64,000 nucleotides of DNA, taken from Eledone cirrhosa (lineage: Eukaryota). The position numbers were made by a program, and so were the translations under genes. This document shows, in pieces, positions 4,945 to 53,907 of this stretch (the first letter of the stretch is position 1; each line of letters begins with the position of its first letter). The stretch lies in NCBI GenBank assembly GCA_964016885.1, contig CAXHJY010000492.1, positions 3,171 through 67,170 on the forward strand, written 5' to 3'. The notes below the pieces were generated by a model, which worked only from the letters and a program-made list of their open reading frames with translations, had not been told where the DNA came from and made no database searches.

Positions 4945-5011
4945 TTTTATCTGATGAAAACACAAATATTATTGCATGATGATGTTTGTTTTTGAAATGC
5001 GCATAATAAAA
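4945..5011 (+). ncRNA. Type I hammerhead ribozyme motif (minimal stem III)
   Basis: TTTTAT, CTGATGA (4951), a long stem II, GAAA (4994), TGCGCA, TA (cut after 5005), then ATAAAA. Stem I is TTTTAT/ATAAAA; stem III segment is palindromic. Confidence 0.75.
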
Positions 5012-5243
5012 TACATGGAACTCCTTTAACCATCTTTTGATCTTATATTATATGTATATATATATATAGATATGTATATATATATATATGTATATATATA
5101 GAGAGATATGTATATATATATATGTATATGTATATATATATATATGTATATATATATATATATATATGTATATATGTATATGTATATATACATATGTGTA
5201 TATATATATGTGTATGTGTATATATATATGTGTATCTATCTAT

Positions 5244-5800
5244 CTAAGGCGGGTAAAATTCCCGAGATCCATGGACGAGTTCTCTCCAGCGGTCTCTGTC
5301 CCTCATTATCGCTGCCATGTTCTGCATCTCCAACAGACCAGTGTCTGTCCTTAGGGCATCAACATACGTTAACATTGGTCTTCCTCTTCTAGTGTGTCCA
5401 TGTAGGGGCTCCCAAAGGAGTACTGAGTGCAATGTCAACTCTGGATGTCGGTGAGCATGTCCAGCTAACCTCAGTCTCCTCTGTGTCACTTTTGAGCTGA
5501 ATTTTGGGATGCTCCCATACAGCTCTGAGTTCTTCATCCTCAGTGTATACTGATTAATGTTCAGAGCCATCCTCAGCATTCTCGTGTAGCACCCATCCAC
5601 CATATGGGTGAGTTTCTTGGTCAGTGTCCAAGTGTCAGACCCATACAGCAGCACAGACTCCACTACAGCAATGAAGAGGCGGATTTTAAGGTCTCTACGA
5701 AGGTCCGACTTCCACACCGATCTCAAGCTGTGGCACGCCGCCCAGGCCTTGCTCTTCCTCTCAACCACATCATCCTCCGTATTCCCAATCTTCGCTCCCA
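5244..5800 (-). mobile_element. 3' fragment of an RTE-like LINE ORF
   Basis: Translation includes VESVLLYGSDTWTL, RRLRLAGH, RRGRPMLTY and RDRDRWRE, a typical RTE C-terminus; flanked by (TA)n. Confidence 0.85.
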
Positions 5801-5889
5801 AATACAAATATATGTGTATATATATATATATATATATAAGTGTATATTTATATATATATATATATATATACAAAAACTGATATATATAT

Positions 5890-5958
5890 TGTATTTTGTC
5901 TGATGAAGGCATACCATAATTTAACTTGGTATCCTTGAAATATGTATAATGAAATATA
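5890..5958 (+). ncRNA. Type I hammerhead ribozyme motif in a roughly 120-bp module between two (TA)n tracts
   Basis: TGTATTTTGT, CTGATGA (5900), AGGCATACCA/TGGTATCCTT, GAAA (5937), TATGTA, TA, ATGAAATATA. Stem I is 10 bp counting G-U pairs. Confidence 0.75.
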
Positions 5959-50751: not shown

Positions 50752-50897
50752 TTGTATTAGGAATATTGGACTGATATGTTTCACAATCAACATAGAAGTT
50801 GCCAGCTTTAACAGCACCCAACAACTCTACCTGCTTTTGTAGACTATCAACTATTTGTTGAGCACTCTTGCCTTCAGGGACAGGATAGGAAAATACA
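50752..50897 (-). CDS. MED20: Mediator subunit 20, exon 2
   Basis: tag|[48 protein letters not shown]|gtaagt; 146 nt. Confidence 0.95.
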
Positions 50898-51069
50898 CTA
50901 AAAATAATAATAGAATTGAGTTTCACTTTAGTTTTATTATTAGTTAGGTAACTAATCCATTCCTTGGTTGGATTAGTAACTGAATATTTATTTAATTATC
51001 ATATTTGTCAAACTCTTTCATCACACATTCTGTTACCTTCTCTGAATGTGTGAAAAAAGGGCTTTGACA

Positions 51070-53220
51070 ATCAAATCATCATTGTCACCATTTTACGTTC
51101 ATTTTGCCAAGCTTGCATGGATTGGACAGGTCATTTTCAGTAAAGCATCCCTCCACTCGTCAGATTCCTTCATCTCCTCTGTGGGCTTCAGCAATTTGAG
51201 ATCACAACACACCACCTCCCCCCAGGTTTTCTTTTACTGCAGTTTCCTTCCACAAGTATTTCTTAGCACTTCTTTACCCAGAGATCATCATCCATATGCA
51301 TCACACACCAGCACAGTCTTCTTTCTTGCACACTACATCTGAATCCTCTTATACCTAGTTTTTCTCTCAGTTCATCCAAGCTTTGTCATTCATGCATATT
51401 AACATTGTCTTCACATATCCTCTACTTTGACTTCCTATGTCTCTCATCACACACAGGTGTCATACAAGAGCCTTTTGTTGTCAACAGGGGTAGTAGCTCC
51501 CTGAACCTTTTCCATCCTGTTCTTATTCTAGCTAATGTGCACTCAGAGCAACCTTCTGTAGTTAATTAGATCACAATAGGTAGCAGAAGCTCTCAACTAC
51601 TTCTATGGATCCTTCCTGGGATTGGAAAAGATTTATTTTGCTGTACAACTAGTAAATACAAAGTCTTCCTTTTCTGTAGTACTCTTCTCTGGCACAAAAC
51701 CAAGCTGTATCTTATCTAATTTTACTCTTTTCCTATATAGTTGTGCTAGAATTCTTTCTGTCACTTTCATAACTTGGTCTATCAGTTTTATGCCTCTGTA
51801 GTTGCTCCTTTATAGAGTACTAGCAGTAAAGCCCGGCGTTGCTCGGGGTCCCTCAGTAGCTGTGTTAAAGTTACAATGTTAAGTTTCTTTCTTGGCTTAA
51901 AAACTGTAGTGTCTACTGTGCAGACTTGCATGTGATGTTTTTGATTAATATTCCCTCAACCAACAATATGCCTTATGAAGTTAAGAAAACATAACGATAA
52001 CCCGAATGTTATAACAAAAGTGGATGCTGGGGATAGAAACTGCACTGGTTATTTATTAACAAAGATCGAAAATGTAAACACTGCAACGCAGAGAAAAACA
52101 TTAGCGTAACCAAATTATCAGTTATGTCTGTCTGCACGCCTATATCACCTCTCTGCACGACTGTCTGTCTGCACGCCTATATCACCTCTCTGCACGACTG
52201 TCTGTCTGCACGCCTATATCACCTCTCTGCACGAATGTCTGTCTGCACGACTGTCTGTCTGCACGCCTAACGACGAAATATTTGCTTGTTTTACGTAGTC
52301 TTTAAATAGACTTGTTTTCAAGTAAAAATATTGTTTTAAAATGCTTTTAAATGGAAATGAAGCAAAACGGAAGCTTAGTGTTCGAACTGATGAATTTTGC
52401 AGGTCAATATTTTGCTGGCTCGACAACTGTTAAAGCCAGCGTAATTTTTTACGTAAGACACTCAATGTAAACAGAACAAAGGGAAATAACTGATAACTTA
52501 CGCTCAAAAATCGATACATTATATTCGATTTCGTCACATAGGGTGGGTCAATTTGAAATTTTTTTTTTTCCGATGTCTTCGCTAGGGCTCAATGTACAAG
52601 TATAGCAATTTCGGTGCAATTCCGTGAGAGATTCTAAGAGGAGATGTGTGCCAAAAATCGATAGACAGACAGACAACCACAGTTTTATATATATAGATTA
52701 CCTTGTAGCAATTATTGAGTATACAGCTGCACCAGTCATTTGATATGACTCCATCCTGTATTACCTGATTGACTAGTTCGGTTCCTACTTCCCCAGACAA
52801 TTTTAGCATCTCAGCAACTGTTTTGAAAGTTCAGCGACTTTCCCATTTTTTATCTCTTTGATTACTTCTTTAATTCTATAACTACTAATTTAGATAGCTG
52901 GTCTCTCTCTTGGGTTGGCTAGGGATAGTTTCCCTTCCTCCTATTCATCAGCCTCTCATAGTAACATTTCCAGTCCTCTTTCATTTGAACATCAGTGATG
53001 CTAAGTACAATGGTGTCATTTTGAACACACTTTTCTCCAACAACCTGTTTCACAATGACACATTGCTATGTGATGCGGAAGATCCCACGTATTTTATCCT
53101 CATTTTACAGAACATAGGTAAACCTGTTTTCAACCTCTTCATCTATCTTCTCTTTTAGTTACCTAGTATTCATCTTTGCTACCCCCATTTTTCCCATCTT
53201 TCCACATATCTCTTGGCTTT
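51070..53220 (-). mobile_element. Old, deleted RTE LINE interrupted by a Helitron
   Basis: Minus-strand remnants (EMLKLSGEVG, NNCYK, NYRGIKLIDQVMKVTE) continue across the 51820-52697 insertion. Confidence 0.75.
51820..52697 (-). mobile_element. Non-autonomous Helitron
   Basis: Minus strand reads A|TCTATATATATAAAA...CCCGAGCAACGCCGGG (hairpin)-CTTTACTG-CTAG|T: TC/CTAG ends, an AT target, no TSD. Internal tandem repeat of about 37 bp at 52125-52268. Confidence 0.88.
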
Positions 53221-53907
53221 AACAGCTTTGTCCTCAGTAGCTTTCGAATCATTTATGCTTTCAGTGTTCTACTTCATTACACTGAAGTAAAGCAATAAGC
53301 TATAGCTAATTATAATTGCAGTAACGAGTAAGAAAACGTCACTGATGATTGATAAAAAAAATCCTGAAACACTAGTGTCCGTCATTCTCATATAGCTACT
53401 GAGATAACTGTGAAATTATCACAGATTAAAATAGTCATAGCGAGACGCATGTTTTTTTTATATACATAAACTATCATATACACCTTTATTATGAATCACG
53501 CTGTTAGTGCTGCTGCTTGTGTATAAATGTGTGTGTACAACGACTAAACAGCAAAAATAAATTACTTCCGGCATAGAAACTGCCGAAATCATTGTTTACA
53601 TGATGTAGACCTAAGACGAAGGCTCACCCCCATCAATTTCTTCAATGTGATTTAACTTCATTATGCGAACCATTGTGAAACAATTAAAATAATATTAACT
53701 TTATTTCGATATTGTTTGTAAACAAAAATAAAAAAAATGCACGTGCAGACAAACAAATGAACAATGCGTACTACTAACTAAACAGAATATGTATTTTGCA
53801 CGAGTTTGATTCGTAAAATATTCAGGATCCAAGATCAAAATATAATAAAATGCCTTATATAAATTTTAGCAATTAAAATTAAAACTTAGAGAATAGATAC
53901 CACTTAC

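What the first reader, a model, noticed from the sequence alone, without database searches (positions are those of the whole stretch)
4945..53390. About 17 diverse hammerhead motifs in one 64-kb window, mostly in tiny modules beside (TA)n
Seen: core-stem II-GAAA-short or palindromic stem III-UH motifs at 4951(+), 5900(+), 6925(-), 20286(-), 21202(+), 21671(-), 23441(-), 24415(+), 26440(-), 33793(+), 34046(+), 34529(+), 38383(-), 38709(+), 38800(+), 39113(-) and 53342(+). Flanks are mostly unrelated. Stem III palindromes differ (TGCGCA, CAATTG, CAGAGCTCTG, CCGG, CCGATCGG, CGATCG, CACTAGTG, TATATATA) while palindromy is kept. About half are degenerate. Inference: many independent Penelope-derived families that favour TA microsatellites, with selection on stem III symmetry for dimeric folding.
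Basis: partly seen in the sequence, partly recalled or inferred. Interest (0 to 1): 0.72.

Follow-up and report, generated by a model that had tools for sequence, protein, structure and literature searches.

The report
Penelope hammerhead end-pieces in octopod DNA
This stretch of likely octopus-family DNA holds roughly 11 to 17 real copies of the hammerhead motif (a predicted self-cutting RNA shape), most likely the short, often worn end-pieces that an already described kind of Penelope jumping gene leaves when it inserts into TA repeats, so the kind is known and only the crowding and variety stand out.

Summary
Real, and of a known kind. My descriptor scan finds 6 motifs scoring above all 124 shuffled windows and an excess of about 11-17 over chance. 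Stem III palindromes are enriched in a stem-III-blind scan (6 of 11 vs 0 of 280). (TA)n lies 37-90 nt 3' of the cleavage site in 8 of 17 (0.9 expected), like published tails of Hydra-clade Penelope-like elements (PLEs). One motif (6931) sits in the 3' end of a broken Hydra-type PLE in the window. Hydra PLEs with hammerheads and (TA)n targeting are published, including from Octopus bimaculoides; dispersed, variable, palindromic, dimer-type hammerheads since 2014. Reads show three of these modules are genome-wide repeats (one probably in the thousands) whose shared sequence starts 5-11 nt upstream of the core. Cleavage, expression and selection were not shown. This scan noted similar densities on other genomes.

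The parts
4937..5019 (+). Type I hammerhead motif, exact core 4951, 15-pair stem II, stem III palindrome TGCGCA; TA run 50 nt 3'
   Evidence: score 35.9
5886..5992 (+). Hammerhead (core 5900, 12-bp stem I, stem III TATGTA) plus 45-nt tail, between two TA runs
   Evidence: 33.7; related to 26446
6684..9384 (-). 5'-truncated, broken Hydra-type Penelope-like element: RT (9295-8370), CxCX5C linker (~7725), GIY-YIG-type C-terminus (to ~7340), stops and frameshifts; last 82 nt repeated inverted at 9303-9384 next to (TA)n
6805..6945 (-). Hammerhead in the 3' end of that element: U4C core 6931, ~95-nt stem II domain, stem III CAATTG, weak stem I; 135-nt tail
   Evidence: 24.5; position supports it
9395..9705 (.).
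19079..19430 (-). Second, very decayed Hydra-type RT fragment
   Evidence: tblastn E 4e-4; HMM iE 0.001
20181..20306 (-). Hammerhead, U4C core 20292, long stem II, stem III CAATTG; TA 225 nt 3'
   Evidence: 26.0
21188..21267 (+). Weak hammerhead 21202 (exact core, 2-bp stem II, CAATTG); TA 37 nt 3'
   Evidence: 21.6, within chance range alone
21516..21727 (-). Remnant 21677: core and GAAA folded back on an inverted copy, plus 70-nt tandem copies; a further copy at 26839-26883
23397..23461 (-). Most canonical motif: U3-A8 core 23447, 4-bp stem II, stem III palindrome CAGAGCTCTG; an inverted truncated copy ends in the core at ~23740
   Evidence: 36.3; HH9 E 0.0025
24401..24460 (+). Minimal-type hammerhead 24415 (1-nt stem III insert), no TA near
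   Evidence: 25.5
26401..26460 (-). Decayed member of the 5900 family (core 26446, extra A after GAAA)
33742..33875 (+). 134-nt module between two TA runs with U3-A8 core 33793 and CCGG; stems weak
   Evidence: 22.9, within chance range alone
33897..34682 (+). Non-coding unit with two identical 288-nt repeats (33912-34199, 34395-34682), each with a hammerhead (34046, 34529; stem III CCGATCGG), 17-nt inverted tail (33897-33913 vs 34291-34307), TA at both ends
   Evidence: 35.3 each
38304..38400 (-). Hammerhead 38389 plus tail; high-copy family; shared sequence ends at 38394-38400
   Evidence: 35.1
38697..38786 (+). Second, decayed copy of the same family (38709, A6G), head-to-head with 38389, ending in TA
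   Evidence: 28.8
38793..38972 (+). Module between TA runs: U4C core 38800, ~93-nt stem II domain, stem III CGATCG; repeat family in reads
39030..39134 (-). Module 39120 (3-bp stem III with 3-nt loop, weak stem I), tail-to-tail with 38800 at one TA run; repeat family in reads
53328..53393 (+). Decayed motif 53342: exact core, CACTAGTG palindrome, stem I broken; no TA near
   Evidence: not recovered by scan
60801..60970 (-). Uncertain: U4A core with 14-bp stem II; could be a plain inverted repeat
   Evidence: 22.3

Best explanation
These are real type I hammerhead motifs that most likely are the 3' end-pieces (solo or truncated pseudo-LTRs) of many families of (TA)n-targeting Penelope-like retroelements, likely mainly of the Hydra clade, in an octopod genome. 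Inferred mechanism: the element's GIY-YIG endonuclease nicks a (TA)n tract, reverse transcription starts about 40-150 nt 3' of the hammerhead, copies the tail and the ribozyme and usually stops at or near the 5' edge of stem I, sometimes turning back to give head-to-head pairs or inverted tails; the copy then decays. In the parent elements the palindromic stem III would let two hammerheads in a tandem transcript fold as a dimer and cut, while a lone copy (for instance in an intron) would stay largely silent. Shown: motifs above chance, palindrome and 3'-TA enrichment, one motif in a Hydra-type PLE, PLE-type inverted and direct repeat structures, repeat status and sharp 5' edge of three families. 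Inferred: PLE origin of the motifs without an ORF, target-primed insertion, dimeric cleavage.
For: Excess over shuffles. Palindromes 6 of 11 vs 0 of 280 in a stem-III-blind scan; stem III folds as a hairpin at 0 to -1.8 kcal/mol but as a self-duplex at -3.2 to -20.1 for the perfect palindromes. TA 3' of the cleavage site 8 of 17 within 100 nt; tails computed from 24 published Hydra elements run 30-355 nt, median 79 (from numbers). 6931 lies behind an RT-GIY-YIG remnant with CxCX5C; of 42 homologs >=660 aa, 42 have DKT, 33 RW[KR], 39 the CxCX5-7CP linker, the Hydra hallmarks; nearest named homolog is from Argonauta hians. Hydra-1_Obim of O. bimaculoides is listed with (TA)n preference and a hammerhead. 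Inverted tails, head-to-head pairs, solo pLTRs are described PLE features and are seen here. Reads: depth 3,872 on the 38389 module vs 2-19 in the spacer in run X5; 3,428 contigs of run X1 laid on 961 bases; majority letters at 38808 and 39083 restore stem II pairs, so the window copies are decayed. Motifs in or upstream of the SLC6 gene's exons lie 4 sense, 4 antisense, as expected if lone copies do not cut.
Against: Only 1 of about 19 motifs is physically joined to a PLE ORF, and that one is a U4C variant with a weak stem I. The RWK and DKT regions are lost from the window's copy, so clade rests on the linker and on homologs; no tree was built. Published Hydra hammerheads have short loop II (3-10 nt) and mostly 1-3-nt loop III, whereas several here have 50-95-nt stem II domains and even palindromes. 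24415 and 53342 have no TA within 600 nt. Seven of 17 sites are within chance range by score alone. No activity data.
Confidence: 0.85

Rival explanations
1. The modules are non-autonomous mini-elements in their own right (ribozyme plus tail, 90-180 nt, or small retrozyme-like units such as 33897-34682) that are transcribed and copied by PLE proteins in trans, rather than dead truncation products.
For: Reads of the 38389 family stop at 38394 and 38400 (863 and 1,020 loose ends, agreement 0.48 and 0.36, i.e. mixed flanks), the distal end of stem I; contig pieces of the 38800 family start at 38793-38803; 233-251 reads of the 39120 family continue into a mirror copy about 7 nt upstream of the core. 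33897-34682 has two identical hammerheads 483 nt apart with no ORF. Retrozymes as PLE derivatives: preprint 10.64898/2026.07.22.740005.
Against: A fixed 5' edge is also what solo pseudo-LTRs give. Mixed flanks could be many subfamilies diverging upstream. RAD reads can be dominated by a few loci. No promoter was identified. The 483-nt pair is not a simple tandem array.
Confidence: 0.3
2. The palindromes are kept for a DNA-level reason (self-priming or endonuclease recognition) or come from TA slippage, not for dimeric RNA folding.
For: Two stem III inserts are pure TA and vary by slippage (2 nt missing in 928 of 1,296 reads at 38343); palindromes at inverted PLE junctions are read as self-priming sites.
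Against: The palindromes sit exactly between GAAA and UH and differ between families, including GC-rich ones; dimer dependence of PLE hammerheads is published.
Confidence: 0.1
3. Chance matches in AT-rich, repeat-rich DNA.
Against: Six sites beat all 124 shuffles; palindrome and TA tests are independent and strong.
Confidence: 0.03

Closest known systems
Hydra clade of EN+ Penelope-like elements, incl. Hydra-1_Obim of Octopus bimaculoides (Craig et al. 2021, PMC8557442; sections 3 and 11, passages, supplementary files S1, S2 and part of S7 read)
   Same: C-terminal GIY-YIG, CxCX5C linker, type I hammerhead near the 3' end, tail of 30-150 nt, insertion into (TA)n, octopod host.
   Different: That paper lists one Hydra family from O. 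bimaculoides; here 14-15 motif families occur in 64 kb, nearly all without ORF, several with long stem II, U4C or U3-A8 cores and even palindromes.
Minimal and palindromic-helix-III hammerheads of metazoan PLEs (Cervera and De la Pena 2014, PMC4209133; parts 1-2 of 4 read)
   Same: Dispersed single motifs, many variable families per genome, opposite-strand pairs 100-700 bp apart, U3-A8 covariation, palindromic helix III, dimer model, low activity.
   Different: Counts there are 2,000-9,000 per genome with a minimal descriptor; no cephalopod named in the parts read; stem III here is longer (6-12 nt palindromes).
Non-LTR retrozymes (PMC7229834, passages; preprint 10.64898/2026.07.22.740005, parts 1-3 of 5)
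   Same: Non-coding, type I hammerheads, PLE-derived; 33897-34682 has two identical motifs 483 nt apart; 23447 resembles canonical HH9.
   Different: No multimeric tandem array here; circular RNA not shown.
Solo and inverted pseudo-LTRs of Adineta vaga Penelope elements (Arkhipova et al. 2013, PMC3846280, passages)
   Same: Inverted pLTRs, optional tails, palindromes at head-to-head junctions, solo pLTRs, unrelated DNA between pLTRs.
   Different: Low copy in that genome; pLTRs about 180-220 bp against 90-180 nt modules here.

Membership tests
Type I hammerhead, PLE type | Core CUGANGA ... GAAA ... UH in order | tested here: met
Type I hammerhead, PLE type | Stems I and II close the core | tested here: met
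   Both form with the core held open for 4951, 5900, 9572, 23447, 24415, 26446, 34046, 34529, 38389, 38800; not for 33793, 38709, 53342, 21677; stem I missing for 6931, 9526
Type I hammerhead, PLE type | Short, palindromic helix III | tested here: met
   12 of 17 perfect; blind-scan enrichment 6 of 11 vs 0 of 280
Type I hammerhead, PLE type | Self-cleavage (as dimer) | not testable with these tools
   No assay; folding energies only
Rfam hammerhead families | Score at or above gathering | tested here: not met
   0 hits in the window; 23447 HH9 24.3 vs 52 bits; none in two other sub-regions
Hydra-clade PLE (element 6684-9384) | RT followed by C-terminal GIY-YIG endonuclease | tested here: met
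   tblastn/HMM of homologs cover RT to C-terminus; best homolog P0001 has a weak Pfam GIY-YIG hit, E 0.012
Hydra-clade PLE (element 6684-9384) | CxCX5C linker | tested here: met
   Present in the window at ~7725
Hydra-clade PLE (element 6684-9384) | RWK and DKT motifs | tested here: inconclusive
   Region lost from the 5'-truncated copy; homologs 33 and 42 of 42
Hydra-clade PLE (element 6684-9384) | No CCHH finger in the endonuclease; placement in RT tree | not tested
   No reference PLE set aligned, no tree built
Hydra-clade PLE (element 6684-9384) | Hammerhead near 3' end and (TA)n target | tested here: met
   6931 with 135-nt tail; inverted tail abuts TA at 9381-9397; the 3' end itself is about 170 nt from TA
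Hydra-clade PLE (the other motifs) | Link to a Hydra-type ORF | tested here: inconclusive
   No ORF attached; only tail length and TA bias match
Non-LTR retrozyme | Tandem units each with a complete type I hammerhead | tested here: inconclusive
   Only 34046/34529: two identical 288-nt blocks with a 195-nt spacer
Non-LTR retrozyme | Expressed as linear and circular RNA | not testable with these tools
   No RNA run could be laid

The most novel reading that the evidence does not exclude
Octopod genomes carry a very large, unannotated class of ribozyme-bounded mini-elements: 90-180-nt units that begin at the 5' edge of hammerhead stem I, end in (TA)n, come in many families (some with U4C cores and 50-95-nt stem II domains that Rfam and standard descriptors miss), number 10^5 or more per genome and are copied as units by Hydra-clade Penelope proteins.
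Probability: 0.25. Interest if true: 0.55.

Novelty: new member of a known kind. Interest (0 to 1): 0.3.

Why it matters
The kind, the palindrome, the dimer model and the TA preference are published. What this window adds is scale and detail: 14-15 families in 64 kb, one family probably in the thousands of copies, a sharp 5' edge at stem I, and long-stem-II/U4C variants invisible to Rfam. If general, octopod hammerhead counts could rival or pass the largest figure I read (about 120,000 in axolotl, PMC7229834), and these units would explain part of the unclassified short repeats and TA tracts of octopus genomes (a recent O. vulgaris repeat annotation, PMC13282606, has no mention of ribozymes in its main text). 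The natural series of palindromes also gives a ready test of the dimer model, whose role in PLEs is still open.

Tried and rejected
No whole genome was held, so no genome-wide count. Rfam E-value search of the whole window was swamped by TA-repeat matches to microRNA models; 76 of 226 rows were not shown. A strict descriptor found only 6 to 10 sites. Pfam did not recognise the two window PLE peptides; homolog search did. First shuffle run timed out. Sequencing runs: no RNA holder listed, so nothing on expression. Contig depths were not used as copy numbers; only raw-read depth, and roughly. Hits 10606, 30585, 42718, 58681 (score 25-26) were left out as likely chance: no palindrome, within the null range. 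The half-core in the TA satellite at 1318 and 3375 has no GAAA and was not counted. Lunse et al. 2017 (PMC5785218) is not held; its content is known to me only through the review PMC6765202 (passages). Naiad clade considered and rejected: endonuclease is C-terminal here. Literature searches found no paper on hammerhead density in cephalopods; subscription papers, Repbase entries and the supplements of PMC4209133 and of the preprint were not seen and may hold such data. Look-up of earlier findings by the 38389 sequence found nothing.
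Full report
Setting. The window is animal DNA rich in (TA)n. It holds seven exons of an SLC6 amino acid transporter on + (about 10370-22454; 52-87% identical to an Octopus sinensis protein over the matched stretches), two Med20 exons on - and several LINEs. The nearest named homolog of the Penelope RT is from Argonauta hians. I infer an octopod; no genome was held.

Observation. All 17 cores are present. I wrote a scoring scan for type I hammerheads (weights mine, set after seeing the sites; U3-A8 accepted because PMC4209133 reports it). 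Real against shuffled counts per window: 6 vs 0.06-0.08 at score 30, 10 vs 1.0-1.2 at 26, 17 vs 3.5-3.6 at 24, 28 vs 10.1-11.0 at 22, over 124 dinucleotide shuffles of three kinds; the reversed window gives 0, 0, 6, 13. The excess is therefore about 11-17. Rfam finds nothing at gathering; 23447 reaches HH9 at E 0.0025.

Palindromes. Twelve of 17 stem III inserts are perfect palindromes. With stem III left out of the score, 6 of the 11 hits at score 24 or more have one, against 0 of 280 hits from 97 shuffles; those six belong to four families. The stem III strands fold poorly alone (0 to -1.8 kcal/mol) and pair with a second copy at -3.2 to -20.1. 4951 and 5900/26446 share stem I letters while differing at both paired positions of the palindrome. 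This fits selection for dimer folding in the parent elements; it is not a test of cleavage.

TA. A run of five or more TA units begins within 100 nt 3' of the cleavage site for 8 of 17 sites (0.91 expected), within 200 nt for 11 (1.69); upstream figures are 4 and 7. The bias survives local jitter and holds for seven sites taken from my score list. The eight short distances are 37-90 nt. Tails worked out from 24 Hydra-clade elements in the supplement of PMC8557442 run 30-355 nt, median 79. Twice, two different modules point tail-to-tail into one TA run (9381-9397; 38973-39029).

Origin. 6684-9384 (-) is a 5'-truncated, broken Penelope-like element: RT, a CxCX5C linker and a GIY-YIG-type C-terminus, with motif 6931 in its 3' end and its last 82 nt repeated inverted at the 5' end beside (TA)n. 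Of 42 homologs of 660 aa or more (out of 85 found), 42 have DKT, 33 RW[KR] and 39 the linker. These are the marks of the Hydra clade, whose members carry hammerheads and almost all insert into (TA)n, and which includes Hydra-1_Obim from O. bimaculoides. A second decayed RT piece lies at 19079-19430. Other units show PLE architecture without an ORF: head-to-head pairs (9395-9705; 38304-38786), an inverted truncated copy (23442-23740), and two identical 288-nt repeats with an inverted tail between TA runs (33897-34682). Such forms, and solo pseudo-LTRs, are described. BLAST leaves 14 groups among the 17 sites, 15 with the missed pair.

Reads. Laying four DNA data sets (at most three samples, two studies) on 38190-39150 at 80% likeness: in RAD run X5 depth is 3,872 on the 38389 core, about 600 on the 39120 module and about 280 on the 38800 module, against 2-19 in 38487-38717; 3,428 contigs of run X1 lie on these 961 bases. 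With 1,839 Mb read and a genome near 2.8 Gb (derived from figures for O. vulgaris; this species may differ), the first family would have roughly 5,000-6,000 copies; RAD sampling makes this an order of magnitude only, and the 38800 figure is inflated by few loci. Most reads of that family end at 38394 or 38400, 5 and 11 nt upstream of the core, at the distal end of stem I, with mixed AT-rich flanks. Contig pieces of the 38800 family start at 38793-38803. About 240 reads per run of the 39120 family continue into a mirror copy. Majority letters at 38808 and 39083 restore stem II pairs, so the window's copies have decayed from better-formed masters. No reversion of U4C at 38801 is among the 40 differences shown, but 76 were not shown.

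Mechanism. Most likely the endonuclease nicks (TA)n, reverse transcription starts in the tail, passes the ribozyme and ends near its 5' edge or folds back. Two motifs in one tandem transcript would cut as a dimer; single copies would not, which fits the 4 sense and 4 antisense copies in and upstream of the SLC6 exons (that the upstream stretch is intron is inferred). The alternative that the short units are copied on their own account is open (0.3).

Known and new. PMC4209133 already reports dispersed, highly variable, palindromic, dimer-type hammerheads from truncated PLEs in thousands per genome; PMC8557442 adds the Hydra clade, its TA preference and an octopus member. Earlier notes of this scan describe 15-20 such motifs per window in other genomes (unchecked). 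Eight literature searches gave no cephalopod census. Extrapolating 11-17 per 64 kb gives several hundred thousand per genome, but the motifs cluster in the first 39 kb and one window is no sample. Verdict: new members of a known kind; interest 0.3.

Noticed in passing
window 38192-38294: A separate high-copy module (read depth about 1,000 in run X5) beside the 38389 unit, ending in TA, with a palindrome near 38270-38285 in the read majority; no hammerhead seen.
   Followed up: no
window 1318 and 3375: The same half-core (CTGATGA plus a 3-bp hairpin, no GAAA) lies twice, 2,057 nt apart, inside the 4.3-kb TA satellite.
   Followed up: partly
window 28056-33479 (+): Nearly whole L1/Tx1-type LINE: 650-aa ORF1, then endonuclease, RT and zf-RVT split by one stop.
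   Followed up: partly
window 45147-47744 (+), 56464-56790 (+), 5247-5800 (-): RT frame of 865 aa with an inserted PHD-like finger (RTE-like by recall), a second copy fragment, and another LINE 3' fragment inserted in TA.
   Followed up: partly
window 10370-22454 (+); 48511-50995 (-): Host genes: SLC6 B(0)AT3-like transporter (7 exons) and Med20 (2 exons seen).
   Followed up: partly
window 10670-55200, ten or more places: A dispersed 150-250-nt SINE-like family on both strands (families D12-D20).
   Followed up: no
window 36530-37986; 47913-48256: 49/33-nt minisatellite of 1.45 kb and a 112-nt triple repeat.
   Followed up: no
window 21964-21982 (+): GAAA followed by a perfect 12-nt palindrome and TT with no recognisable core upstream; perhaps the right half of another motif.
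   Followed up: no
window 23242-23740: Nested direct (84 nt) and inverted repeats around motif 23447, a complex insertion beside TA.
   Followed up: partly
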